From contig CAZHLU010000002.1 of assembly GCA_964533435.1 (NCBI GenBank), positions 1,203 through 47,437 on the forward strand: 46,235 nt of DNA, given 5' to 3'. Under the pieces are notes generated by a model, which was not told the DNA's origin, ran no database searches, and worked only from the letters and a program-made list of their open reading frames with translations. Origin of the DNA: an uncultured Gammaproteobacteria bacterium. Lineage in GTDB: Bacteria; Patescibacteriota; Patescibacteriia; UBA1558; GWA2-36-10. Below are positions 11,579-39,469 of this stretch, piece by piece. The number at the start of each line of letters is the position of its first letter. Positions within the stretch are counted from its first letter, which is position 1. Made by a program: the position numbers and the translations under genes.

Positions 11579-11607
11579 TTGACAAAAAAAATTAGCTATG
11601 CTAAGAT
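11579..11607 (+). promoter_or_regulatory. Sigma70 promoter driving a non-coding transcript
   Basis: TTGACA (11579-11584), 17-nt spacer, TAAGAT (11602-11607). No credible CDS lies downstream before the terminator at 11766-11801. Confidence 0.6.
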
Positions 11608-11613
11608 ATCTAT

Positions 11614-11801
11614 CCATACATTCACTCGTCCTGATTGTATGACAAATTTTGTGGGCTGCGGCTCTCGTTAAGAGGGATTCGGATTCCCAATGTACTAAAG
11701 TACCCGTTTCACGGGACGTTCGTCAGAATGACGAAAGGTACTCGGAATCGTCGAGAGCAGCTCATGGGGGGACGCGCTTCGGCTCGTCCCCTTTTCTTTT
11801 T
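11614..11801 (+). ncRNA. Unclassified structured ncRNA (~190 nt)
   Basis: A GC-rich island in AT-rich DNA with its own promoter and terminator. Closing helix GCUG..CUCUCG (11655-11667) pairs with CGAGAGCAGC (11751-11760). It encloses the hairpins GGGA-UUCGGAU-UCCC, GUAC-UAAA-GUAC, CCCG-UUUCA-CGGG and UUCGUCA-GAA-UGACGAA. I found no SRP, 6S, RNase P or tmRNA signature motifs. Confidence 0.6.
11766..11801 (+). terminator. Intrinsic terminator of the ncRNA
   Basis: GGGGACG (11768-11774) pairs with CGTCCCC (11785-11791), with an inner GC/GC stem capped by a UUCG tetraloop, followed by TTTTCTTTTT. Confidence 0.8.
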
Positions 11802-11814
11802 GCTTAAATTATTT

Positions 11815-30964: not shown

Positions 30965-32719
30965 TTATTGTAATATTGCTTTGATTCTTCTAACACCAGC
31001 TGAAGACGCTTCTTCTTTGGTAATTTTAAAAGTGCCAAGCTCTTTGGTATTGTTAACATGGGGTCCACCACAGATTTCTCGACTAAAAAAATTATCATCA
31101 CTGCCAACTGTATAAACTTTTACTTTTTCACCATACTTATGACCAAACAAGCCAATGGCATTTTTTTCTTTTGCTTCTTCAACTGTCATTTCGCTCCAGC
31201 TAACTGCTAAAGCTTTATTAATTTGTTCATTGACCAAATCTTCAACAGCTTTAATTTGCTCGGGTGTCATTTTATCTGGATAAGAAAAGTCAAAACGTAA
31301 ACGTTCAGTATTGATATTACTACCCTTTTGCGCTACTTCTGGTCCTAATATTTTGCGTAAAGCTTGATGTAATAGATGGGTAGCAGTATGGTATCTAGTA
31401 CTCATAACACTATCGTCTGCTAGTCCGCCTTTAAACATACCGGCTGATGCTGTGCGTGAAAGCTCTTGGTGTTTTTTGAATTCCGCTTCAAATTCTTGTT
31501 TATTGATTTGAATATTATTTTCTTGAGCTAGCTCTTCAGTCATTTCCAAAGGAAAGCCGTAAGTAGAAAATAAAATAAAAGCAATTTTGCCATCAACGGT
31601 TTTTTGTTTAGCAAATTCGCGTAAACCTTTTTCTAAAGTAGCAGTGAATTTTTTTTCTTCTTGTTCAATTTCTTTTATTATAAATTCTTTATTTGTGATT
31701 AACTCAGGATAAGTATCACTATATTGTTTAATAATAATGTCAGTTAAAATTTTGCTAAAATTATTTTTTATGCCTAATATTTTAGCAAAACGAATAGCTC
31801 TCCTAATTAAGCGGCGTAATACATAGCCTTGATCTTTATTAGAAGGACTAACTCCCTTAGGATCACCTAAAATAAAGACAGCGCTACGAATATGGTCGGC
31901 AATAATACGAAAAGCTTTTTTGTCATCTTCGTATTTTTTTTCAGATAGTTTTTCTATTTCATTAATAATTGGTAAAAATAAATCAGTTTGGTAGTTATCA
32001 TCTAGGTTATTTAAGACAGCCACAGTTCTTTCTAAACCCATACCAGTATCAATATTTTTTTGAGCTAAAGCTTCAAATTTATCAGGTGCAGTTTTATTGT
32101 ATTCCATAAAAACATTATTCCAGATTTCAACCCAAAGCTTATCTTCTGGATCAAATGATTCTGGGATTTTATTTTTATCTCCTGTCCAATAAAAAATTTC
32201 TGTATCAGGACCACAAGGGCCAGTATTACCTGCTGGACCCCACCAATTATCTTTAATTCCTAATTTAGCAATTCTGTTTTTATTTATTCCTAATTTTAAC
32301 CAATGTTCAAAAGCAACTTTATCTTCTGGAACATTCTGATCGCCTTGCCAAATTGAAACAGCTAGTAATTCTGGTTTAATTTTTAATTCTTTAGTTAAAA
32401 ATTCCCAAGCAAAATCAATGGCTTGATTTTTATCATAGTCACCTAAAGACCAATTACCAAGCATTTCAAAAAAAGTATGATGAGTAGTATCCCCGATTTC
32501 ATCAATATCTCCGGTACGCACACATTTTTGTACACTGACTAATCTTTTGCCTTGAGGATGTTTTTCGCCCATTAGATAAGGCACTAAAGGGTGCATGCCA
32601 GCAGTAGTAAATAAAACAGTCGGATCATTATCTGGTATTAAAGAAGCAGAGCTAATAATGGTGTGATTTTGTTTTTTGAAGTATTCTAAAAATTTATTTC
32701 TTAATTCTTGTGCTTGCAT
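30965..32719 (-). CDS. alaS: Alanyl-tRNA synthetase, compact form lacking the C-Ala domain
   Basis: 584 aa. AlaRS N-terminus (FLEYFKKQNHTIISSASLIPDNDPTVLFTTAGM) and editing-domain zinc motifs HTATHLLHQAL and CGGPHV. The protein ends shortly after the editing domain. Confidence 0.92.
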   Translation of the reverse strand: MQAQELRNKFLEYFKKQNHTIISSASLIPDNDPTVLFTTAGMHPLVPYLMGEKHPQGKRLVSVQKCVRTGDIDEIGDTTHHTFFEMLGNWSLGDYDKNQAIDFAWEFLTKELKIKPELLAVSIWQGDQNVPEDKVAFEHWLKLGINKNRIAKLGIKDNWWGPAGNTGPCGPDTEIFYWTGDKNKIPESFDPEDKLWVEIWNNVFMEYNKTAPDKFEALAQKNIDTGMGLERTVAVLNNLDDNYQTDLFLPIINEIEKLSEKKYEDDKKAFRIIADHIRSAVFILGDPKGVSPSNKDQGYVLRRLIRRAIRFAKILGIKNNFSKILTDIIIKQYSDTYPELITNKEFIIKEIEQEEKKFTATLEKGLREFAKQKTVDGKIAFILFSTYGFPLEMTEELAQENNIQINKQEFEAEFKKHQELSRTASAGMFKGGLADDSVMSTRYHTATHLLHQALRKILGPEVAQKGSNINTERLRFDFSYPDKMTPEQIKAVEDLVNEQINKALAVSWSEMTVEEAKEKNAIGLFGHKYGEKVKVYTVGSDDNFFSREICGGPHVNNTKELGTFKITKEEASSAGVRRIKAILQ

Positions 32720-32855: not shown

Positions 32856-33203
32856 TTAACGAGGTACACCGCTTAAGAAAGCTGTTAACCACATTAGCCA
32901 AGCATAAATAGAATATTTGCTAAACAAGACCTGGCAATGCCCGCGTCTTGCCAAGGCATCAAATGCCCAAAGTAAATGGATGAACATGATCAAGAGCGCT
33001 AGTATGCCACAACAACTGTGAATATTTAGTTTGGCATTAGGATGAGTAAGGCCCATAAGACTGGTGCCAATCAGATCACAAATAAAAGCTAGGATAAATA
33101 TGCGCAACATCCACGGTTTGAGGATTTTTTTAGCTCTTTCTGACCAAATGGCAGTAGTATAAAGAATTAGTGCTAAACAAATAAGCATGATAGCTGCTTT
33201 CAT
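32856..33203 (-). CDS. Small polytopic membrane protein, function unknown
   Basis: 115 aa with 3-4 TM segments. Strong SD (GGGAGG) 6 nt upstream of the ATG. More GC-rich than the genome background. A putative own promoter, TTGATT-17-TAAACT, lies upstream. Confidence 0.65.
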   Translation of the reverse strand: MKAAIMLICLALILYTTAIWSERAKKILKPWMLRIFILAFICDLIGTSLMGLTHPNAKLNIHSCCGILALLIMFIHLLWAFDALARRGHCQVLFSKYSIYAWLMWLTAFLSGVPR

Positions 33204-33282
33204 TTTTTCCTCCCTATTGCAAGTGTGAAGTACAAAGGATAACTAAAGTTTACTCGTGCTTTTTTAAAAAATCAAATTTTAA

Positions 33283-33316
33283 ACAAAAAGAAAACCCTCG
33301 GTGCTAGGCACGAGGG
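33283..33316 (-). terminator. Terminator of the tRNA-like/trailer transcript
   Basis: CCCTCG (33295-33300) pairs with CGAGGG (33311-33316), with an inner 3-bp extension, followed on the - strand by UUUUCUUUUU. Confidence 0.75.
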
Positions 33317-33434
33317 TCCTGGAAAAATTGAGACTGCCTCTAGTAAACCCCGCTGAATAGGTTGTTGGAACTATTTAGGGTTCCGCGCCCTCAGCATGAG
33401 GTGTTACGAAGCAATCTCAAAGCGTTAAAGAACT
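33317..33434 (-). ncRNA. Structured 3' trailer RNA co-transcribed with the tRNA-like element
   Basis: GC-rich and about 118 nt. The long-range helix GAGAUUGC / GCAGUCUC encloses the hairpins CCUCA-UGC-UGAGG and GGAAC-CCUAAAUA-GUUCC. It sits between the encoded CCA end at 33435 and the terminator. Confidence 0.5.
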
Positions 33435-33516
33435 TGGTGGGGACAGTAGGGTTTGAACCTACGACCTCTTCCACTTCCGTGGAAGCGCTCTTTCAAGAAG
33501 TCTGAGCTATGCCCCC
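33435..33516 (-). ncRNA. tRNA-like RNA without an anticodon loop
   Basis: 82 nt: GGGGGCA-UA-GCUC-AGACUUCUUGAAA-GAGC-G-CUUCCAC-GGAA-GUGGAAG-AGGUC-GUAGG-UUCAAAC-CCUAC-UGUCCCC-ACCA. The acceptor stem, D stem, 5-nt variable loop, T arm and encoded CCA are canonical. The anticodon arm is replaced by a perfect 7-bp stem with a GGAA tetraloop, and the 13-nt D loop lacks the GG. Confidence 0.7.
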
Positions 33517-33529
33517 ACTTAGGTTGTGT

Positions 33530-33557
33530 ATATTAACATATTTATAGTATTTGTCAA
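33530..33557 (-). promoter_or_regulatory. Promoter of the tRNA-like transcript
   Basis: On the - strand: TTGACA (33557-33552), 16-nt spacer, TAATAT (33535-33530). The predicted start lies about 7 nt upstream of tRNA-like position 1. Confidence 0.6.
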
Positions 33558-33574
33558 GACTTTAAGGGCGCTAA

Positions 33575-33606
33575 AACAAAAAACCGCCTAAATAAGCGGT
33601 TTTTTC
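33575..33606 (-). terminator. Terminator of the RGG/zinc-ribbon gene
   Basis: ACCGC (33583-33587) pairs with GCGGT (33596-33600), flanked by A/T runs on both sides. Confidence 0.6.
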
Positions 33607-33629
33607 TATATTTCTTTAATAAAATAGCT

Positions 33630-34277
33630 TTATTTCGAAGCTTTTTTAGCTATTTTAGCTTTTTTTATAGCTTTAGGAGCTTTGGTAACTTTGCTTGCCT
33701 TTTTTTCCTTTGCTTCTACTTTTAGTTCTTTTTCAATTTTTACTGGCTTATCAACAATTAGTTTTTTTACTTCGGCTTTAGGAAAATTTTTCAAAATTTC
33801 ATCAAGCTTTTGGTTAATATTTTTAAGTTGTTGTTCTAGTTTTTCATTACTAGGACCACTACCAGATTTTTTATCTTTAGCTCTGCTATCTTGTCCAAAG
33901 CAATTTGAACAAAGCACAGGCTTGTCGCCAGTTGGTCTAAAAGGTACTTCGCAAGGATCGCCACATTCAGTACAAACGGCTTTAAACATTTTTTTATCAC
34001 GAAAATTGCTTTTGCCAAAATCTCGACCACCACTAGATCGATTAGAGCCAAAGCTACTGTCTTTACCTTTAAAGCAGTTATTACAATAAACTGGTTTATC
34101 ACCAGTTGGTCTAAAAGGTACTTCGCAAGGATCGCCACATTCAGCGCAAACAGCTTTGTGCATAGCTGGTCTGGCACCACTGTCGCCCCTACCAAATCCT
34201 CTGCCTGAGTCTCGGCGACCAAATCCACCGCCACCTTTGCGGTCATTAAACCTTCCGCCCTTATTAAAATTACCCAT
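33630..34277 (-). CDS. RGG-box protein with two CxxC-x17-CxxC zinc-ribbon repeats and a lysine-rich tail
   Basis: 215 aa. The N-terminus is G/R/F-rich (GGRFNDRKGGGGFGRRDSGRGFGRGDSG). It carries two copies of KAVC.ECGDPCEVPFRPTGDKPV.C.NCF, and the C-terminus is K/A/E-rich. Likely nucleic-acid binding. Confidence 0.75.
   Translation of the reverse strand: MGNFNKGGRFNDRKGGGGFGRRDSGRGFGRGDSGARPAMHKAVCAECGDPCEVPFRPTGDKPVYCNNCFKGKDSSFGSNRSSGGRDFGKSNFRDKKMFKAVCTECGDPCEVPFRPTGDKPVLCSNCFGQDSRAKDKKSGSGPSNEKLEQQLKNINQKLDEILKNFPKAEVKKLIVDKPVKIEKELKVEAKEKKASKVTKAPKAIKKAKIAKKASK
33928..34144. repeat. Perfect 43-nt intragenic direct repeat (two copies)
   Basis: CCAGTTGGTCTAAAAGGTACTTCGCAAGGATCGCCACATTCAG occurs at 33928-33970 and 34102-34144, 174 nt apart and in frame. 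It encodes the two zinc-ribbon repeats. Confidence 0.95.
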
Positions 34278-34360
34278 AATTTCTTAGTTTTTAATTATAT
34301 ACTTTTAAAGTTTAACTATTTAGCAGATAAAAAGCAATAGTGCTTTTAGCTAAATGCTAG

Positions 34361-34400
34361 CTTTAAAACAAAATCCCACCGCAATCAGATTGGGTGGGAT
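34361..34400 (-). terminator. Terminator of the cold-shock gene
   Basis: ATCCCACC (34373-34380) pairs with GGTGGGAT (34393-34400), followed on the - strand by UUUGUUUU. Confidence 0.75.
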
Positions 34401-34421
34401 CTTGATTTTTAGATCAAAATG

Positions 34422-34619
34422 TTAAACACGTTGAACATTAACCGCATTCATTCCTTTTGGAGAATTTTCTACTTCAAAAGAAACGCTGTCACCTTGGTGT
34501 AATTCATTGAACTGAACACCTACTAAGGAATTGCTATGAAAGAAAATATCCTTTTCCTGTCCTTCAACGCTAATAAAACCAAAACCTCTATCGGTCAAAT
34601 TTTTAATTGTACCAGTCAT
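34422..34619 (-). CDS. Cold-shock protein (CspA family)
   Basis: 65 aa with RNP1-like RGFGFI and RNP2-like IFFHS motifs. A putative promoter, TTGCTT-17-TAGTAT, lies about 90 nt upstream. Confidence 0.93.
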   Translation of the reverse strand: MTGTIKNLTDRGFGFISVEGQEKDIFFHSNSLVGVQFNELHQGDSVSFEVENSPKGMNAVNVQRV

Positions 34620-34750
34620 TATTTTAGACTTAATTTGTAAAATTGCAATTTAATCAGATTTTAAAAAATCGACCAATTTTTTAAAGACAATACACTTGCG
34701 AGAGTATACTAGCACATATGCCCTAAAAAAGCAAGTCCTATGTCTATTTT

Positions 34751-35093
34751 TAATAAAAAAAAGAACCCCCTCCCGCATAGATGTGAATGTAGCAGATGGG
34801 AGGGGGCAAAGGGTACCGCAGTGCACTTATGGCAAGGCCATTTCTGGTAAAGCTGAGCTTGAGTTTGACCCGTCGGGTCACCCTTCCGGCTTTTGGAGCC
34901 GTCACCGTTTGGCGTTCTAGAATGCCGAGTGGTAGTGGGGGTGCGCAAGAGTTAGTCTTGCCCAAGCAAAGCCCTTAACGAAAGGTGACGCCTTTACGTT
35001 AGAAAGGCTCCGTCCGTATTCCAGAATGATCTGGCGCTTGCTCAAAAGATGCTAGCAGTATTCCCTCTAAAAAGAGTTGAAGAACCACGAAAG
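34751..35093 (-). ncRNA. Unclassified GC-rich structured RNA (~340 nt)
   Basis: Has its own promoter (35100-35127) and a terminator: CCCCCUCCC (34806-34798) pairs with GGGAGGGGG (34774-34766), followed by a U-run. Many local and long-range helices are visible, including CCAGA-UCAU-UCUGG, GCAAGA-CUAAC-UCUUGC, UGACCC-GAC-GGGUCA, AUGGC-CUU-GCCAU, and GGAGCC..CGUCACC pairing with GGUGACG-GCUCC. Stop-free in several frames, but with no SD or plausible protein. Confidence 0.65.
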
Positions 35094-35099
35094 ATTAAT

Positions 35100-35127
35100 A
35101 TCATAGCATATTATATAAAAATGTCAA
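35100..35127 (-). promoter_or_regulatory. Promoter of the ~340-nt RNA
   Basis: On the - strand: TTGACA (35127-35122), 16-nt spacer, TATGAT (35105-35100). Confidence 0.55.
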
Positions 35128-35130
35128 GAT

Positions 35131-35158
35131 ATAAAAGAAAAAGGCCCTAAAGGGCCTT
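35131..35158 (-). terminator. Terminator of the mini zinc-ribbon gene
   Basis: AAGGCCC (35141-35147) pairs with GGGCCTT (35152-35158), followed on the - strand by UUUUCUUUU. The hairpin overlaps the stop codon. Confidence 0.7.
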
Positions 35159-35345
35159 AAAACTTCTTAAAAGGGCTAGGTTTACGATCTTTGGCTACTG
35201 GCGGCCTATAAATATTAGTACTATGGCATTTGGGGCAATTATCAGGCATATCGATAATTGGTATTTTAGGGTTTGTAACTATTGGGTCACCTGGTTTGTA
35301 GCCACAATCTCGACAATGACTTTTGTCAGTAAATTCAAATACCAT
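35157..35345 (-). CDS. Mini zinc-ribbon protein
   Basis: 62 aa with CRDC...CPKC (CxxC-x27-CxxC). SD AAAGGAG lies upstream of the ATG at 35345. Confidence 0.55.
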   Translation of the reverse strand: MVFEFTDKSHCRDCGYKPGDPIVTNPKIPIIDMPDNCPKCHSTNIYRPPVAKDRKPSPFKKF

Positions 35346-35494
35346 TGTTGGCTCCTTTTGAGGTTTAGAGTTAGTGTACAGCGAATATTGCTAAAATTAT
35401 CATAAAATAGCTAAACTAGCAATAAATTTAGTAGTCTATCTAAAAAACAGTTTATCAAGTATACTATGTTTAGAATATTTAAATATAGATAAAT

Positions 35495-35995
35495 ATGAGG
35501 GTACCAAGAAGAAAGGCTGGAGAATTTACTTTTGCTAAACCAGATCCTTTAATTACAGCTGAAAAATTAACAGAGCTTAAAGCTAACTTAGAAAAATTAA
35601 AAAATATTATTCAACCAGAACTTGCTAGCGAAGTTAAGCGTTTAGCCTTGATGGGTGATTTTTCAGAAAACGCTGCCTATCAAATAGCCAAAGGCCGTTT
35701 GCGCGGAGTAAATCAAAAAATTACAGATTTACAAAAACAAATTGATATTGCAGAAATCATTGAAACCAATACTAAGTCCTCTACTGTGAAGATTGGTAGT
35801 CTAGTGAGTGTAGAAGTAAATCAAGCCATAAAAAAATACCGCATCTTAGGATCTTTAGAAACTAATCCTAGTAGCGGTGTAATATCATATAATTCCCCTT
35901 TGGGACAGGCCTTGCTTAATAAAGCAGTGGGTGCGGTTTTAGAAATTAAATTAGGAGATAATATAGTAACTTATAAAATATTAAAAATAGAATAG
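35495..35995 (+). CDS. greA: Transcription elongation factor GreA
   Basis: 166 aa. N-terminal coiled coil containing GDFSENAAY, and a C-terminal FKBP-like domain (ISYNSPLGQALLNKAVG). Confidence 0.88.
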   Translation: MRVPRRKAGEFTFAKPDPLITAEKLTELKANLEKLKNIIQPELASEVKRLALMGDFSENAAYQIAKGRLRGVNQKITDLQKQIDIAEIIETNTKSSTVKIGSLVSVEVNQAIKKYRILGSLETNPSSGVISYNSPLGQALLNKAVGAVLEIKLGDNIVTYKILKIE

Positions 35996-35996
35996 G

Positions 35997-37055
35997 TTAA
36001 ATAATTTGTCCGCTAGCAATTAATTCTTTGCCTTTGTAGATAGCTAAAATTTGCCCTGAGGCTACACCTTTTTGGGCATTTTTAAATTCAGCAATAATAT
36101 TATTGTCTTGTTTTTTGATAGTTAAGTCTTGTTCGGGTTGGCGATAACGAATTTGAGCTTTGGCTTTTAGGGGTAATTTATATTCTTTATTTAACCAGTG
36201 TAAAGAAGAAATTTGTAGAGTATTTTTGTATAATTTTAAGTCGCCTTCTTTAGCAACGGTAATTTGATTTTGAGCCAAATCTTTAGCTACGATATACCAG
36301 GGACCACCAGCTAAATTAAGGCCTTGGCGTTGACCAATAGTATAATACCAAACTCCTTGGTGTTCCCCAATTTTTTTACCATTAGTATCTACTATCTCCC
36401 CTACTTTTGGTTTTATTTTTTGAGATAAAAAAGTTTTTAAATCTATTTTACCAATAAAACAAATACCTTGACTGTCAGGACGACTGGCGTTAGGAAGACT
36501 TACAAGTTTGGCGATTTGTCTGACTTTTGGCTTGATTAAATCAGCAATGGGAAATAAAGCTTTGGATAATTGTGTTTGAGTAAGTCCAGATAAAAAATAA
36601 GATTGATCTTTGTTATTATCCTTAGCTCGCATGAGATGGTAGCCGTGTCGATCTTTCTTAACTTTGGCATAGTGACCAGTAGCAATTTTATCAAAACCAA
36701 GTTCAATCGCCTTTTCTAAAAATAATTTAAATTTAATTTCATTATTACATAAAATATCTGGATTGGGAGTTAAACCATTTTGATAAGAATCAAAAATATA
36801 ATTTACTACCTTTTCATGATACTCTTTTTCAAAATCAAAAGTGCGGATATTTACGCCTAAAAAAGCAGCTACTCGATAAGCCATGATCCGATCTTCTTTC
36901 CAAGGGCATTCGCCTTTTAGATTTACTTTTTCGGAAAAGTTTTTCATAAAGGCAGCTTCTACTTCGTAGCCTTGTTTTTTAAGTAAGTACAAAGCTACAG
37001 CCGAGTCTACTCCGCCTGATAAAGCTACTAATATTTTTGGCTTTTTTGAAGTCAT
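35997..37055 (-). CDS. mnmA: tRNA 2-thiouridine(34) synthase MnmA
   Basis: 352 aa with a PP-loop (VALSGGVDSAV), NPDILCN, KDQSYFL and QGICF motifs. Confidence 0.93.
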   Translation of the reverse strand: MTSKKPKILVALSGGVDSAVALYLLKKQGYEVEAAFMKNFSEKVNLKGECPWKEDRIMAYRVAAFLGVNIRTFDFEKEYHEKVVNYIFDSYQNGLTPNPDILCNNEIKFKLFLEKAIELGFDKIATGHYAKVKKDRHGYHLMRAKDNNKDQSYFLSGLTQTQLSKALFPIADLIKPKVRQIAKLVSLPNASRPDSQGICFIGKIDLKTFLSQKIKPKVGEIVDTNGKKIGEHQGVWYYTIGQRQGLNLAGGPWYIVAKDLAQNQITVAKEGDLKLYKNTLQISSLHWLNKEYKLPLKAKAQIRYRQPEQDLTIKKQDNNIIAEFKNAQKGVASGQILAIYKGKELIASGQII

Positions 37056-37196
37056 TACTTTATACTATAATATTTTATCTACTTTTTGTCAATATAATTT
37101 AATTGACTTTAGACTATATTAGGAGTATTTTATATGCAAGTTAAATTGTACTTTTACGCCCCACCAACCACGATCCAATAGCAAGGGAGGTTAGAC

Positions 37197-37496
37197 ATGA
37201 CCGACAACAAAGAGATCGTGGTGGTTCAGCGAAAGCTACTAGTTGAGGTAGTGGTGGCAAACGAAGAGATGGCCGACAAGATCATCAAGATGGTGCAGGA
37301 GGTTGACGAACGTGTTCGTCAGGAACGCATTTCTTTCGTGGTCGATAGTCACGAAAAGATGGCTGATGGTCACCATATTCGCATCCTCTGCGAATGGAGA
37401 CAACAGACGCACCTGCAAAACATCTTGGCTGAGATCAGCAAAGTGCTCGGCCTTCATTTCCGTGACCCAACTCTTCAACAGCCAAGCTCAGACTGA
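37197..37496 (+). CDS. Small acidic hypothetical protein with foreign (GC3-rich) codon usage
   Basis: 99 aa. Strong SD AGGGAGG (37184-37190) lies 6 nt before the ATG, and a dedicated terminator follows. Codons mostly end in G/C, unlike all neighbouring genes. No recognisable domain. Confidence 0.55.
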   Translation: MTDNKEIVVVQRKLLVEVVVANEEMADKIIKMVQEVDERVRQERISFVVDSHEKMADGHHIRILCEWRQQTHLQNILAEISKVLGLHFRDPTLQQPSSD

Positions 37497-37506
37497 ATCG
37501 CCCCTA

Positions 37507-37540
37507 GGGCAAGCTAGCGACTTGCCCTTTTTATTTTTAT
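37507..37540 (+). terminator. Terminator of the GC-rich small ORF
   Basis: GGGCAAG (37507-37513) pairs with CTTGCCC (37521-37527), followed by TTTTTATTTTT. Confidence 0.8.
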
Positions 37541-37547
37541 ATAAAAT

Positions 37548-37579
37548 AAAAGACAGGCCTTATTTAGGCCAGTCTTTTT
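37548..37579 (-). terminator. Terminator of the ATPase/salvage operon
   Basis: AAAGAC-A-GGCC (37549-37559) pairs with GGCC-A-GTCTTT (37567-37577), with T-rich sequence on the - strand. Lies immediately after the NUDIX stop. Confidence 0.65.
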
Positions 37580-37973
37580 ATTTGATAAAATTAAAATGTT
37601 TTAAGACAGGTAATATATTAGGAGCTAAACCTTCTGGCAGTTGATCAAGGTCAAACCAACCCCAATTTTTAATATCTGGTCCTGGTTTTATTTCACCTAC
37701 TCTTTTGGCTAAATAGTGAACCAAGAGTACGTCAACGCGAGCATCGCTTAAGTCTTTGTAGGCCCAGGTAATAAAAGGCTCTGGGTTTAAAATTTCTAAT
37801 TCAATACCCATTTCTTCTTTAGCCTCTCGAATAGCCGCGCTAATCAAATTTTTTTCATAATCCTCTACCCTGCCACCACAAAATTTCCAAAAATTATCAT
37901 CGCCATGTTGATTGAGTAATACTTTATTGTTTTCAACAATAACTGGACCAGAGGCAATAATTATTTTAGGCAT
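37578..37973 (-). CDS. NUDIX hydrolase
   Basis: 131 aa with Nudix box GGRVEDYEKNLISAAIREAKEEMGIE. Starts 2 nt after the upstream stop. Confidence 0.85.
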   Translation of the reverse strand: MPKIIIASGPVIVENNKVLLNQHGDDNFWKFCGGRVEDYEKNLISAAIREAKEEMGIELEILNPEPFITWAYKDLSDARVDVLLVHYLAKRVGEIKPGPDIKNWGWFDLDQLPEGLAPNILPVLKHFNFIK

Positions 37974-37975
37974 AA

Positions 37976-39469
37976 TTAAGAAATTTTAAAAATTGATATT
38001 TTTTCTAAGGCAACACTAGCTAAATGTATGCGATCTTTACTACGAGCATATAAAGTAAATAAGCGCTCGCCTTTTTTAACGTGATTGCCGTATTCTTTAT
38101 TTAAATAGACGCCGGCTAATTTATCACTTGGTGCGCCTAAAATACGAGCAATGGTATTTAAGCCTTTATTATCGGTAAAAGTTATTTTACCAGACTTAGG
38201 AGCAGTAATATATTTTTTACAAGCACCAATCACAATATCTTCAGGATCAATTTCTGAATTACCACCTTGGGCTTTAATAATTTCTTGCATTTTTTTCCAA
38301 GCAGCACCAGATTCTAGGGCTTGCCAAGCCATTTTAGCACCGTGTCCTTTTTTGGTTTTGCCAGTAAGTTCAAGTAGTTCACCGGCTAGATGAATGGCTT
38401 TATTGGCTAAATCGGTTGGATAACCATCTTTTTGTTGCAAAACACGTAAAACATCTCTTGCTTCTAAGGATGGACCTACGCCACGACCAACTGGATCTTC
38501 GGCTCTAATCATCACTACTTTAATTTTAATGCCAAATCTAGAGGCTAAATACTTGAATTTTCTTTCTAATTCTTTAGCAACCTTCATATCTGGTATTTTG
38601 GTAGTAACACCAACCGGCATATCGATAATCAAATGAGTAATACCCATAGCAACCTTTTTAGCCATAATACTAACTAACATTTTATCGTATGGCTCTAAAG
38701 ATAATGGATAAGATACTTTTAATATTTTATCATCAGCTGGTGCTAAATTTAAACCGCCACCCCATACTAGACAGGCGCCAGTTTTTTTAACTATTTTACG
38801 AATTTCATCAGCGGTAAAAGATACTGGAGCAAGTACTTCCATAGTATCTGCCGTGCCCGCTGGCGAAGTAATAGCCCTAGAAGAAGTTTTAGGTATTATT
38901 AAGCCTAAAGAAGCTAAAATAGGGATAGCCACCATGGTAGTCCTGTTTCCTGCTAATCCACCAACTGAGTGTTTATCAGCCACTAAGCCATGAAACTTAA
39001 TAACTTCACCAGTTTCAGCCATAGCTTTAGTCATGTAATAGAGCTCTTGATCAGTATAATTTTTGATAAAACTAGAAGCTACAAAATAAGTAATTTCAGT
39101 TCTAGTTAAAATACCATTGCTAATATCGGAAAATATTTGGTAAAAATCTTGGTAAGTTAATTTTTTCTTTAAGAGCCTTTTTTTAATAGCTTGGATAGAT
39201 TTGGCTCTTTCTAAAAATTCTACTTCTACAATAGTGTTTTGAGGAATGGTCATCTTTTCCCAAATATCACGATACAAAGCAATTTGTCCGGGCTTTACTC
39301 TGGTGCTAGAAGTGTTAGCTTCGGCTATAATTCTATTTTTTTGCCATAAAATTTCTATTTTATCGCCAGCTCTAATGCCATAGCGCATGGCTTCCTCTTC
39401 GTTGACTAAAGCAATATTTGCTTGGCCAGTTTCAATGTCTAGTTTTTTGATTTTTAGATAATAAGGCAT
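37976..39469 (-). CDS. AMP phosphorylase / thymidine-phosphorylase-family enzyme (archaeal DeoA type)
   Basis: 497 aa. An ~85-aa N-terminal extra domain precedes the glycosyl-transferase family 3 core (HSVGGLAGNRTT, SSRAITSPAGTADTME). This length and architecture match AMP phosphorylases rather than the ~440-aa bacterial thymidine phosphorylases. Confidence 0.8.
   Translation of the reverse strand: MPYYLKIKKLDIETGQANIALVNEEEAMRYGIRAGDKIEILWQKNRIIAEANTSSTRVKPGQIALYRDIWEKMTIPQNTIVEVEFLERAKSIQAIKKRLLKKKLTYQDFYQIFSDISNGILTRTEITYFVASSFIKNYTDQELYYMTKAMAETGEVIKFHGLVADKHSVGGLAGNRTTMVAIPILASLGLIIPKTSSRAITSPAGTADTMEVLAPVSFTADEIRKIVKKTGACLVWGGGLNLAPADDKILKVSYPLSLEPYDKMLVSIMAKKVAMGITHLIIDMPVGVTTKIPDMKVAKELERKFKYLASRFGIKIKVVMIRAEDPVGRGVGPSLEARDVLRVLQQKDGYPTDLANKAIHLAGELLELTGKTKKGHGAKMAWQALESGAAWKKMQEIIKAQGGNSEIDPEDIVIGACKKYITAPKSGKITFTDNKGLNTIARILGAPSDKLAGVYLNKEYGNHVKKGERLFTLYARSKDRIHLASVALEKISIFKIS

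What the first reader, a model, noticed from the sequence alone, without database searches (positions are those of the whole stretch)
34751..35127. Stand-alone ~340-nt highly structured RNA of unknown class between csp and a mini zinc-ribbon gene
Seen: a sharp GC-rich island in AT-rich DNA is bracketed on the - strand by TTGACA-16-TATGAT (35127-35100) and a 9-bp G/C hairpin with a U-run (34806-34753). It holds many perfect hairpins and a three-way-junction-like long-range pairing (GGAGCC..CGUCACC with GGUGACG-GCUCC). Four overlapping ORFs in different frames and strands (34696-34978) have no SD and look like composition artefacts. I searched by eye for several signatures and found none convincingly. 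These were RNase P (GGAAAGUCC, ACAGAA..CGGCUUA), tmRNA (GGGG..UUCGAC 5' end, T-arm plus CCA 3' end), SRP (GGUCCGGAAGGAAGCAGC), 6S architecture, the glmS core and the cobalamin B12 box. The size suits RNase P or tmRNA, which reduced genomes must encode somewhere. It is therefore either a very divergent housekeeping RNA or a new large ncRNA.
Basis: partly seen in the sequence, partly recalled or inferred. Interest (0 to 1): 0.68.

Follow-up and report, generated by a model that had tools for sequence, protein, structure and literature searches.

The report
New structured RNA gene in Parcubacteria
This stretch of a tiny uncultured (Parcubacteria/CPR) bacterium's genome is a free-standing gene for a roughly 340-base, tightly folded RNA; it matches no known RNA family, a handful of relatives keep it with compensating base-pair changes, and its job is still unknown.

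Summary
The feature is real. A G+C island (0.51-0.56 against a background of about 0.33) lies on the minus strand between a near-consensus promoter (TTGACA-16-TGC-TATGAT, 35127-35100) and an intrinsic terminator (34806-34755). No Rfam 15 family matches it, even at E<=10, either here or in three homologues, and ARAGORN finds no tmRNA. Homologues occur at the syntenic place next to greA in at least five other Parcubacteria lineages: L002, L102, L004/L005, L108 (5' half only) and, more distantly, L009. Single-base indels and the lack of any shared reading frame exclude a protein. A comparative model of nine helices (54 pairs) is 98.9% paired across five sequences. Ten of its pairs changed on both sides, against 0-1 when the partners are slid. 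RNAalifold recovers the same helices. The downstream genes differ between lineages, so the RNA acts in trans rather than as a leader. One hairpin loop stays palindromic while its sequence changes (UCUAGA, GCUAGC, CCCGGG), which suggests a symmetric kissing-loop dimer. The function is unknown. The family looks new and confined to a narrow clade.

The parts
35122..35127 (-). -35 hexamer TTGACA of the RNA's own promoter
   Evidence: 11 of 12 consensus matches. TTGACA is invariant in L002, L004, L102, L108 and L009-2.
35100..35108 (-). Extended -10 element TGC-TATGAT
   Evidence: TG before the second hexamer. All homologues have TGC-TAnnnT 16-17 nt after TTGACA. The transcription start near 35093 is inferred, not measured.
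35071..35093 (-). Unstructured 5' leader carrying the conserved motif GUUCUUC (35085-35079); probably a processing signal
   Evidence: UUAAUCUUnnnUGGUUCUUC is shared by the window and L004, with GUUCUUC also in L102 and L108. The same GUUCUU motif follows the tRNAs that precede other small RNAs. Processing is inferred.
34807..35070 (-). Conserved structured core of the RNA (264 nt here; 215-268 nt in homologues)
   Evidence: Found by nhmmer and the covariance model in L002, L004, L005 and L102. 92.9% identical to L002 with 5 gap positions, against 85.7-88.9% for four of the five neighbouring coding genes compared (csp 96.5%). Nine-helix comparative model.
35055..35065 (-). P1 5' strand (GGGAAUACUGC), pairs with 34811-34819 (GCGGUACCC); closes the molecule
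   Evidence: helix 1: 10 pairs, 2 with changes on both sides (A-U/G-C and C-G/U-A). L009-2 has GGACUGCUGC:GCGGCAGUCC.
35046..35052 (-). P1a/P1b 5' strands (GCA-U-CUU), pair with 34823-34828 (AAG-UGC)
   Evidence: helix 2: 100% paired. L009-2 replaces them with GAU:AUC and CCC:GGG.
35015..35045 (-). Lineage-specific extension X1, pairs with X1' at 34829-34848 (GCAAG-C-GCC:GGC-CUUGC and UUCUGG:CCAGAA). The CCAGAA in X1' is conserved across the close clade.
   Evidence: Constrained fold. L002 keeps the helix through a register shift, GCCAAGG:CCUUGC. Much shorter in L102 and L004.
35009..35014 (-). P2 5' strand GACGGA, pairs with 34977-34982 (UUCGUU); encloses P3
   Evidence: helix 3: 100% paired. 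L009-2 has GAUGGA:UUCAUU (C-G to U-A). L108 has GACUAAG:CUUAGUU (G-C to U-A).
34990..35008 (-). P3 hairpin GCCUUU-CUAACGU-AAAGGC
   Evidence: helix 4. The fifth pair is U-A, A-U or G-C in different lineages, and the loops vary. The covariance model hits this P2/P3 module in L009 at E 0.008.
34973..34976 (-). P4 5' strand AAGG, pairs with 34849-34852 (CUUU)
   Evidence: helix 5: 100% paired, with G-U/G-C variation.
34961..34967 (-). P5 5' strand GCUUGGG, pairs with 34857-34863 (CUCAAGC)
   Evidence: helix 6: 7 pairs, 2 with changes on both sides (C-G/U-A and G-C/C-G). L009-2 has GGAUCGA:UCGAUCU.
34944..34960 (-). Lineage-specific hairpin (CAAGA-CUAAC-UCUUG) between P5 and P6
   Evidence: L002 has U-G in place of C-G. 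No such local hairpin in L004; in L102 only a weak one (AGC:GCU) that overlaps P5.
34939..34943 (-). P6 5' strand CACCC, pairs with 34879-34883 (GGGUG)
   Evidence: helix 7. L004 has CACUC:GAGUG (C-G to U-A).
34903..34931 (-). Distal element P7-P8. P7 is CACU:GGUG, with an A-rich 3' bulge AAAC (34907-34910). P8 is the hairpin GGCAU-UCUAGA-ACGCC, whose loop L8 (34916-34921) is a palindrome.
   Evidence: helices 8 and 9: 4 pairs with changes on both sides. L8 is UCUAGA (window), U+GCUAGC (L004) and U+CCCGGG (L102); CUAG is kept in L002 and L009-2.
34864..34902 (-). Variable hairpins: P9 (CGGC-UCCAAAA-GCCG, within 34884-34902) and P10 (ACCC-GAC-GGGU, within 34864-34878)
   Evidence: P9 is kept in L004 with a different loop and is absent in L102. 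P10 is replaced by UUCGA-CGCG-UCGAA in L002 and by GAUC..GAUC in L004, and is absent in L102.
34755..34806 (-). Intrinsic terminator: 9-bp G/C stem (34806-34798 with 34774-34766), 23-nt loop, U-run (34765-34755)
   Evidence: Homologues have CCCCUCCU..AGGAGGGG (L002), GCGCCCC..GGGGCGC (L004) and GCCCC..GGGGC (L102), each followed by a U-run.

Best explanation
The interval 35127-34755 (minus strand) is an independent gene for a stable, trans-acting, highly structured non-coding RNA. It belongs to a previously undescribed family confined to a narrow Parcubacteria clade.

How it is made:
- It is transcribed from a near-consensus extended -10 promoter, which is shown as sequence and conserved.
- It ends at an intrinsic terminator, also shown and conserved.
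- Its AU-rich 5' leader, carrying a GUUCUUC motif, is probably trimmed. This step is inferred.

Fold:
- The core of about 260 nt has a long closing stack (P1-P1a-P1b), a side branch (P2 enclosing hairpin P3) and a rod (P4-P5-P6).
- The rod ends in a distal element (P7, an A-rich bulge, hairpin P8), with lineage-specific hairpins inserted at fixed points.
- This fold is shown by covariation, on few sequences.

Likely mode of action:
- The genes around it differ between lineages, so it does not regulate a neighbour in cis.
- The P8 loop remains a palindrome while its sequence changes. I infer that two copies pair through this loop (a symmetric kissing-loop homodimer) and that the RNA works as a self-associating scaffold or RNP core, rather than as a base-pairing regulator.
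- The cellular function is not known.
For: - **Own transcription signals, conserved:**
- **Not coding:**
- **Conserved above its neighbours:** the core is 92.9% identical to L002, against 85.7-88.9% for four of the five flanking coding genes compared (csp is higher, 96.5%).
- **Homologues:** found by nhmmer at E 3e-9, and by the covariance model at 121-240 bits, though the model was built from these same sequences. All sit next to greA.
- **Structure:** 54 pairs, 98.9% paired, 10 pairs with changes on both sides (shuffles 5.2 +/- 1.4, 0 of 500 reach it; slid partners give 0-1). RNAalifold predicts the same helices on its own. The model lies within 4-7 kcal/mol of the MFE in five of six sequences. 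L009-2 and L108 add further compensatory changes in P1, P1a, P1b, P2, P3, P5 and P6.
- **Trans action:** the downstream gene is csp (window, L002), a tRNA operon (L004), an unrelated ORF (L102) or an acetyltransferase (L009).
- **Palindromic loop:** UCUAGA, GCUAGC and CCCGGG. Palindrome-to-palindrome variation was used as evidence for a symmetric kissing loop in OLE RNA (PMC12286853).
Against: - Only four independent full-length lineages, one partial and one distant, are available.
- I built the alignment by hand with the structure in mind, so the pair counts lean towards the model.
- Related sequences can beat the shuffle control without any structure.
- In the window sequence itself the comparative fold is 15 kcal/mol above the MFE.
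- The palindrome evidence rests on one double change (CUAG to CCGG). The outer pair of each 6-mer could simply extend the P8 stem, and in L002 a G insertion breaks the 6-mer, leaving only CUAG.
- There are no expression data.
- No homologue was found in 80 other Parcubacteria greA loci. The family is therefore either very narrow or evolving too fast to follow, which weakens any claim of a general role.
Confidence: 0.6

Rival explanations
1. It is a very divergent copy of a universal housekeeping RNA (RNase P RNA, tmRNA, SRP RNA or 6S RNA) that the standard models fail to recognise.
For: The size of 260-340 nt suits RNase P or tmRNA. The strong constitutive promoter and the processing-like leader are typical of stable housekeeping RNAs. 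The 5' and 3' ends pair as in all four classes. An ACCAGAA stretch near the 3' end loosely recalls the ACAGAA of RNase P; this is from my own knowledge and is only a resemblance.
Against: No hit to any RNase P, tmRNA, SRP or 6S model even at E<=10 on short stretches, in four lineages. ARAGORN finds no tmRNA. The sequence has no GGAAAGUCC/CGGCUUA P4 strands, no T-arm or 3' CCA, no tag reading frame conserved, and no GNRA-capped helix 8 with an AGCA loop. The comparative fold is branched rather than a 6S-like rod with a central bubble. The family is undetectable in 80 other Parcubacteria greA loci, whereas housekeeping RNAs are conserved across phyla.
Confidence: 0.06
2. It is a regulatory RNA that titrates a protein or pairs with mRNAs in trans (a 6S/Ms1-like RNA polymerase binder, a CsrB-like sponge, or a long base-pairing sRNA). 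The fold serves only to present binding sites.
For: It is a stand-alone gene with promoter and terminator. Conserved unpaired stretches could be binding sites: CCAGAA, the A-rich bulge and J67, and GAyGGA. It lies next to greA, which encodes an RNA polymerase factor, in every lineage. Ms1 is about 300 nt (PMC9130861, abstract seen).
Against: Nine covarying helices with insertions only at fixed points indicate selection on a three-dimensional fold, not on linear sites. There is no repeated motif as in CsrB. There is no central bubble as in 6S. The linkage to greA may only reflect how closely related the genomes are.
Confidence: 0.17
3. It is a ribozyme or other catalytic RNA of a new class.
For: Large, intricately folded bacterial RNAs with conserved junction nucleotides have often turned out to be catalytic (established knowledge). 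Conserved junction and bulge nucleotides are present.
Against: No match to any ribozyme family in Rfam. No associated mobile element, intron context or cleavage-site signature. Nothing tested here bears directly on catalysis.
Confidence: 0.07
4. It is a cis-acting leader or riboswitch that controls the downstream csp gene through its terminator.
For: The RNA ends in a terminator 130 nt upstream of csp on the same strand. Leaders of csp are known to be long and structured (established knowledge for E. coli cspA).
Against: csp is absent downstream of the homologues in L004, L102 and L009, where unrelated genes follow. csp has its own promoter-like site after the terminator. The closing helix P1 shows no alternative pairing with the terminator arms. 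No riboswitch family matches.
Confidence: 0.04
5. It is not a functional RNA at all: a G+C-rich remnant of acquired DNA, a pseudogene or a small protein gene.
For: Another G+C-rich island 2 kb away (37197-37496) is a plausible protein gene with a good Shine-Dalgarno site. Five ORFs of 42-79 aa overlap the region.
Against: No Shine-Dalgarno site. No credible Pfam match (three of the five ORFs have none; best E 0.017, below cut-off). 1-nt indels against L002. No shared peptide beyond the nearest relative. No blastn match in phages or plasmids. Conservation is higher than in four of the five neighbouring coding genes compared. Compensatory changes.
Confidence: 0.02

Closest known systems
OLE RNA (ornate, large, extremophilic; Rfam RF01071)
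   Same: A large, highly structured, independently conserved bacterial ncRNA of unknown biochemical function. OLE forms a symmetric homodimer in which one bridge is a kissing loop between the same loop of two chains, and that loop varies between palindromes (GGCC, GAUC, AGCU) (PMC12286853). This is the same signature seen here in L8 (CUAG/CCGG, or UCUAGA/GCUAGC/CCCGGG).
   Different: OLE is about 600 nt, occurs in Firmicutes within an operon with its partner-protein gene oapA, and has a different fold. No Rfam match here. Dimerisation of the present RNA is inferred only.
ROOL, GOLLD and raiA-motif RNAs (large orphan ncRNAs)
   Same: Found in the same way, as unusually structured G+C-rich intergenic islands. 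All are multi-helix folds supported by covariation, with unknown function. ROOL and GOLLD self-assemble through kissing loops and A-minor contacts (PMC12286853).
   Different: No sequence or model similarity. Those RNAs are longer (ROOL about 580 nt, GOLLD about 800 nt), often phage-associated and widely distributed. This RNA is 215-268 nt and restricted to a few Parcubacteria lineages.
Bacterial RNase P RNA (types A and B)
   Same: Similar size. 5' and 3' ends paired in P1, an early side hairpin, and a strong promoter for a stable RNA.
   Different: No P4 pseudoknot strands, no conserved regions CR-I to CR-V, and no covariance-model hit at E<=10 in four lineages. Not conserved outside a narrow clade.
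6S RNA / Ms1 RNA
   Same: Stand-alone, abundant-looking RNA with paired ends. Ms1 is about 300 nt. The gene lies beside a transcription-factor gene (greA).
   Different: The comparative fold is branched (P2/P3 side arm, distal three-helix element) and has no large central bubble. No Rfam 6S hit.
HIV-1 dimerisation initiation site (DIS) hairpin
   Same: A hairpin whose loop holds a 6-nt palindrome flanked by an unpaired base, as in L004 (U+GCUAGC) and L102 (U+CCCGGG). It works through loop-loop kissing of two identical RNAs (established knowledge).
   Different: An analogy of mechanism only. The genetic context is unrelated, and nothing here has been tested experimentally.

Membership tests
RNase P RNA (bacterial type A/B) | Significant match to the RNaseP_bact_a/b (or archaeal/nuclear) covariance models | tested here: not met
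   No RNase P hit at gathering score or at E<=10 in the window or in L102, L004 and L009.
RNase P RNA (bacterial type A/B) | P4 pseudoknot formed by conserved strands (GGAAAGUCC... with ...ACAGAAnnCGGCUUA) | tested here: not met
   Neither strand is present in the sequence. The post-P3 segment J23 has no conserved complement before P1' in the four lineages.
tmRNA | tRNA-like domain (acceptor stem, T-arm, 3' CCA) detected by ARAGORN or the Rfam tmRNA models | tested here: not met
   ARAGORN finds 0 genes. No tmRNA-family hit. The 3' strand of P1 runs into a terminator, not ACCA.
tmRNA | Conserved internal tag reading frame | tested here: not met
   No peptide shared between the window, L102, L004 and L009 in any frame.
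SRP RNA (small 4.5S or large Bacillus type) | Helix 8 with a GNRA tetraloop and conserved symmetric/asymmetric loops (..GGAA..AGCA..); match to the SRP models | tested here: not met
   No SRP hit at E<=10. The distal hairpins carry the loops UCUAGA and UCCAAAA, which vary between lineages.
6S RNA | Rod of about 180 nt with a large central bubble flanked by closing and terminal stems | tested here: not met
   The comparative fold is branched, with only small internal loops in the rod (5/4 nt at J45/J54). No Rfam 6S hit.
6S RNA | Binding to the RNA polymerase holoenzyme and templating of pRNA | not testable with these tools
   Needs biochemistry.
Cobalamin and other riboswitches, T-box leaders | Match to an aptamer model, and a conserved downstream gene controlled through an expression platform | tested here: not met
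   No Rfam hit. The downstream genes differ in every lineage.
OLE / ROOL / GOLLD / raiA / HEARO large ncRNAs | Match to the family covariance model | tested here: not met
   All are in Rfam 15, and none is hit even at E<=10.
Self-associating RNA (symmetric kissing-loop dimer); a way of working, not a family | A hairpin loop that is self-complementary and stays so when it changes | tested here: inconclusive
   L8 is UCUAGA, GCUAGC or CCCGGG in three lineages, CUAG in two more, and broken to UCUAGGA in L002. That is effectively one independent double change.
Self-associating RNA (symmetric kissing-loop dimer); a way of working, not a family | Dimer observed in solution or by structure determination | not testable with these tools
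   Needs native gel, SEC-MALS or cryo-EM.

The most novel reading that the evidence does not exclude
This is the founding member of a new class of large bacterial RNA that assembles into a symmetric RNA-only dimer (or higher oligomer) through the palindromic P8 loop. It would be one of a set of lineage-specific, strongly expressed stable RNAs that these reduced-genome Parcubacteria carry next to greA. The others are the small RNA linked to a tRNA-like element at 33437-33290 and the RNA at 11608-11800. Together they might stand in for functions that other bacteria perform with proteins.
Probability: 0.2. Interest if true: 0.8.

Novelty: categorically new. Interest (0 to 1): 0.62.

Why it matters
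New classes of large, intricately folded bacterial RNAs are rare. Each earlier one (RNase P, group I and II introns, tmRNA, and more recently OLE, ROOL and GOLLD) has revealed unexpected biochemistry or architecture.

Candidate phyla radiation bacteria make up a large share of bacterial diversity, have minimal genomes and are almost unstudied at the RNA level. A strongly promoted 260-nt RNA with nine covarying helices, kept in such a small genome, is probably doing something the cell needs.

The palindromic loop gives a concrete and cheap experiment: does the RNA dimerise? The other unmatched G+C-rich RNAs in the same window and in sister lineages suggest that current RNA family libraries miss a whole layer of Parcubacteria RNA biology.

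The caveat is that the family is so far seen in only about six lineages and has no assigned function.

Tried and rejected
1. **Known families.** The Rfam gathering scan of the window found only a tRNA-like hit at 33438-33516. Scans at E<=10 of the region and of three homologues gave only terminator look-alikes and noise. ARAGORN found nothing.
2. **Protein.** Pfam on all five overlapping ORFs gave only weak matches, the best at E 0.017 and below the cut-off. No peptides are shared between lineages.
3. **Zinc-ribbon gene as an anchor.** It has only 2 relatives among 5.8 billion proteins, so it is too rare to be useful. Its one relative did yield L108.
4. **Genome-contig scan with GreA.** It returned a single relative, L002.
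5. **DNA pattern GGACGGAGCCT..AGGC..CTT in viral contigs.** Eight matches, all in unrelated coding sequence, so the pattern was too unspecific for the metagenome scan.
6. **Metagenome scan with a GreA alignment.** It returned 80 Parcubacteria loci, none with the GGAyGGAGCC motif or a covariance-model hit.
7. **The 115-aa membrane protein as an anchor.** It led to loci where synteny is broken and no RNA is present. One locus had no DNA on file.
8. **blastn against phages and plasmids.** No match.
9. **Plain MAFFT alignments.** They misplaced the variable inserts. MAFFT also shifted L009-2 by one column in the six-sequence version, so L009-2 was scored only in my own script.
Rejected.
11. **The UUCUGG:CCAGAA pairing as a family feature.** L102 lacks UUCUGG but keeps CCAGAA.
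12. **Homology with the G+C-rich RNAs at the same position in L006, L010 and L103 ('family B') and with L013-2.** No nhmmer or covariance-model signal, and only a vague likeness (GAUGGAG).
13. **Literature.** Searches for described Patescibacteria/Parcubacteria ncRNAs found nothing relevant.
Full report
**1. What is in the sequence**

Read on the minus strand, 35127-34755 has the anatomy of a free-standing RNA gene.
- A -35/-10 pair, TTGACA-16-TATGAT, is preceded by TG. It scores 11 of 12 and is one of the three best promoter-like sites in 33000-38000.
- An AU-rich leader of about 25 nt follows.
- Next comes a 264-nt G+C-rich core. In 200-nt windows the G+C fraction is 0.475-0.555, against about 0.33 for the whole 46-kb window.
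- A 9-bp all-G/C hairpin and a run of U close the gene.
- The upstream zinc-ribbon gene (35345-35157) has its own terminator (35158-35141). The downstream csp gene (34619-34422) sits behind a further promoter-like site.
- The transcript folds much better than shuffled controls: -122.1 kcal/mol, z = -4.8.

**2. It is none of the known RNAs**

- A scan of the whole window against Rfam 15 at gathering scores finds only a tRNA-like hit 1.3 kb away.
- With permissive filters and E<=10, the 700 nt around the island give only terminator look-alikes and noise. The best is 18.6 bits against a cut-off of 50.
- ARAGORN finds no tmRNA.
- The same negative result holds for the homologous RNAs in L002, L004, L009 and L102.
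- blastn finds nothing in phage or plasmid collections.

**3. It is not a protein**

- The five overlapping ORFs (42-79 aa) lack Shine-Dalgarno sites and credible Pfam matches.
- The gene caller left the interval empty in an identical 3.2-kb contig (L001).
- Against the closest relative, the core differs by single-base insertions and deletions.
- Beyond that relative, no reading frame on either strand gives a shared peptide.

**4. Organism and relatives**

The neighbouring GreA protein's nearest named relatives are from Parcubacteria/Patescibacteria. I used GreA, and later the zinc-ribbon protein, as anchors to fetch syntenic loci.

| Locus | Anchor identity | What was found |
|---|---|---|
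| L002 | GreA 89% | 93% identical core |
| L003 | GreA 77% | contig ends exactly at the RNA's promoter |
| L102 | GreA 78% | complete but shorter RNA, 215-nt core, no zinc-ribbon gene |
| L004, L005 | GreA 73% | nhmmer E 3e-9 |
| L108 | Zn-ribbon 69% | 5' half only, contig ends |
| L009 | GreA 70% | second RNA, L009-2, with the same closing helix, P2/P3 module and nested rod; the covariance model hits its P2/P3 at E 0.008 |

- All of them keep TTGACA, then TGC-TAnnnT, and a terminator whose stem sequence differs.
- Between the window and L002 the core is 92.9% identical. GreA is 87.5%, the zinc-ribbon gene 88.9%, the treble-clef zinc-finger gene 85.7% and the 115-aa gene 87.1%. Only csp is higher, at 96.5%.

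**5. Structure**

Automatic alignments misplaced the variable inserts. I therefore aligned the sequences segment by segment, checked that the segments rebuild each sequence exactly, and passed a gap-free (N-padded) version to the tools. MAFFT left it unchanged (A6).

The model has nine helices:
- **P1:** 10 bp, joining the two ends.
- **P1a and P1b:** continue the closing stack.
- **P2:** GAyGGA with UUCrUy, enclosing hairpin P3 (GCCU..AGGC).
- **P4, P5 (7 bp) and P6:** form the rod.
- **P7:** carries an A-rich 3' bulge.
- **P8:** the terminal hairpin.

Results on the five sequences:
- 98.9% of 261 cells are standard pairs.
- Ten pairs changed on both sides. Shuffles give 5.2 +/- 1.4 and none of 500 reaches ten. 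Sliding the 3' partners by 1-3 columns gives 0-1.
- RNAalifold, given only the alignment, returns the same helices.
- L009-2 fits P1 to P6 with a single non-standard cell and changes many pairs on both sides.
- L108 changes a G-C pair of P2 to U-A.
- Enforcing the model costs 4-7 kcal/mol relative to the MFE in five sequences, but 15 kcal/mol in the window sequence.
- Lineage-specific hairpins (the X1/X1' extension, the hairpin after P5, P9, P10) are inserted or lost at fixed points. This is typical of a constrained three-dimensional core.

Caveats:
- There are only four independent full-length lineages.
- The alignment is hand-made and structure-guided.
- Relatedness alone can beat the shuffle control.

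**6.

The proposed pairing of GGAGCC..CGUCACC with GGUGACG-GCUCC exists in the window and in L002. GCUCC is absent from all other homologues, and the twelve pairs are only 51.7% paired on the alignment. In the comparative fold those nucleotides belong to P2/P3, J23, P7 and hairpin P9.

**7. How it probably works**

- The gene after the terminator differs between lineages: csp in the window and L002, a tRNA operon in L004, an unrelated ORF in L102, and an acetyltransferase in L009. The zinc-ribbon gene is missing in L004 and L102. The RNA is therefore a trans-acting product, not a leader.
- Its consensus promoter resembles that of the adjacent tRNA operon.
- Its leader carries GUUCUUC, and GUUCUU also follows tRNAs that precede other small RNAs. 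I read this as a processing signal for a stable RNA. That reading is inferred.
- The most telling detail is loop L8 of hairpin P8. It is UCUAGA in the window, U+GCUAGC in L004 and U+CCCGGG in L102. CUAG is retained in L002 and L009-2.
- A loop that stays self-complementary while its sequence changes is the signature used to support the symmetric kissing loop of the OLE RNA dimer, where GGCC varies to GAUC or AGCU (PMC12286853).
- I therefore propose that two copies pair through L8, and that the RNA acts as a self-associating scaffold or RNP core. This rests on one effective double change and is an inference. The cellular role is unknown.

**8. Distribution and novelty**

- A metagenome scan with a GreA profile returned 80 further Parcubacteria loci with GreA 49-69% identical. 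None has the motif or a covariance-model hit.
- Sister lineages carry other unmatched G+C-rich RNAs at the same position: L006, L010 and L103 ('family B'), and L013-2. I could not link them to this family.
- The family is thus either narrow or evolving fast.
- Literature searches found no description of such an RNA.
- I classify it as a new RNA family. The broader kind, an orphan large structured ncRNA found as a G+C island in A+T-rich DNA, is familiar (PMC8723152 abstract).

**9. Verdict**

- The interpretation 'new large ncRNA' is supported.
- The housekeeping, leader and coding alternatives are unlikely.
- Interest is moderate to high. This is a rare new structured RNA in an understudied phylum, with a testable dimerisation hypothesis. 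It is limited by few sequences, a narrow range and an unknown function.

Noticed in passing
window 33557-33290 (minus strand); also L002 ~2031-1800, L004 ~789-535, L009 ~1347-1090, L013 ~680-290: A conserved operon of consensus promoter, tRNA or tRNA-like element, CCA-AGUUCUU spacer, a G+C-rich small RNA of about 90-125 nt, and a terminator. The window's 'tRNA' (33516-33438; 45.9 bits in Rfam, missed by ARAGORN) has an enlarged D-loop. In place of an anticodon arm it has a 7-bp stem capped by GGAA (CUUCCAC-GGAA-GUGGAAG), so it may be a processing handle rather than a decoding tRNA. L009 likewise has a 7-bp stem with a 5-nt loop, while L002 has a normal tRNA-Lys(CUU). The small RNA matches no Rfam family. 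In L009 it shares its closing helix (GGACUGCUGCAG...CAGGCGGCAGUCC) with the large RNA L009-2.
   Followed up: partly
window 11579-11805 (plus strand): A third stand-alone G+C-rich RNA. It has the promoter TTGACA-17-TAAGAT with TGC, a core of about 150 nt closed by GGGCUGCGGCUCUCG...CGAGAGCAGCUC, and a terminator. MFE z = -4.3, and no Rfam match at E<=10 within the core.
   Followed up: partly
window 37197-37496 (plus strand): A second G+C island (0.50) is a 99-aa ORF with a strong Shine-Dalgarno site (GGGAGG) and a terminator (37506-37528). It has no Pfam family. A 93-aa gene sits at the same place in L003. The G+C content is odd for this genome, and I did not check whether it is truly coding.
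   Followed up: partly
L006 1951-1700, L010 1861-1570, L103 ~675-385 (minus strands); same as L023: In sister lineages (GreA 67-69% to the window) a different G+C-rich RNA of about 250-290 nt occupies the equivalent position near greA, after a 66-aa gene. It has a consensus promoter, a closing helix GAUGGnGGG...CCnCCAUC and a terminator. No Rfam hit, and no detectable homology to the window RNA.
   Followed up: partly
L013 245-20 (minus strand): Another promoter-to-terminator G+C-rich RNA (L013-2, z = -6.2) at the position that L009-2 occupies in L009. It has a 15-bp closing helix GGCUGCUGUCUG.../...CAGCAGGCAGCAGCC. Its relationship to the window RNA is unresolved.
   Followed up: no
L013 461-571 and L009 1249-1334 (minus strands): tRNA hits of 111 nt and 86 nt carry long insertions, about 40 nt in or near the anticodon arm in L013. 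These may be introns or tRNA-like elements.
   Followed up: no
window 35085-35079, 33433-33428; L004, L013, L102, L108 leaders and spacers: The motif GUUCUU(C) recurs just upstream of mature-looking stable RNAs: in the leader of the large RNA and in spacers after tRNAs. It may be a ribonuclease processing signal specific to this clade.
   Followed up: partly
L002 (CAZWIT010000008.1): The public record is titled 'uncultured Gammaproteobacteria bacterium'. Its genes and synteny match the window, whose GreA relatives are named Parcubacteria/Patescibacteria. The bin is probably mislabelled.
   Followed up: no
window 35157-35345 (minus strand): The 62-aa zinc-ribbon protein directly upstream of the RNA has only two relatives among 5.8 billion clustered proteins. 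It is present beside the RNA in the window, L002, L003 and L108, but absent in L004 and L102.
   Followed up: yes
window 30965-32719 (minus strand): The alanyl-tRNA synthetase-like ORF is only 584 aa. It apparently lacks the usual C-terminal domains, which would be consistent with a reduced CPR genome. I did not examine it further.
   Followed up: no
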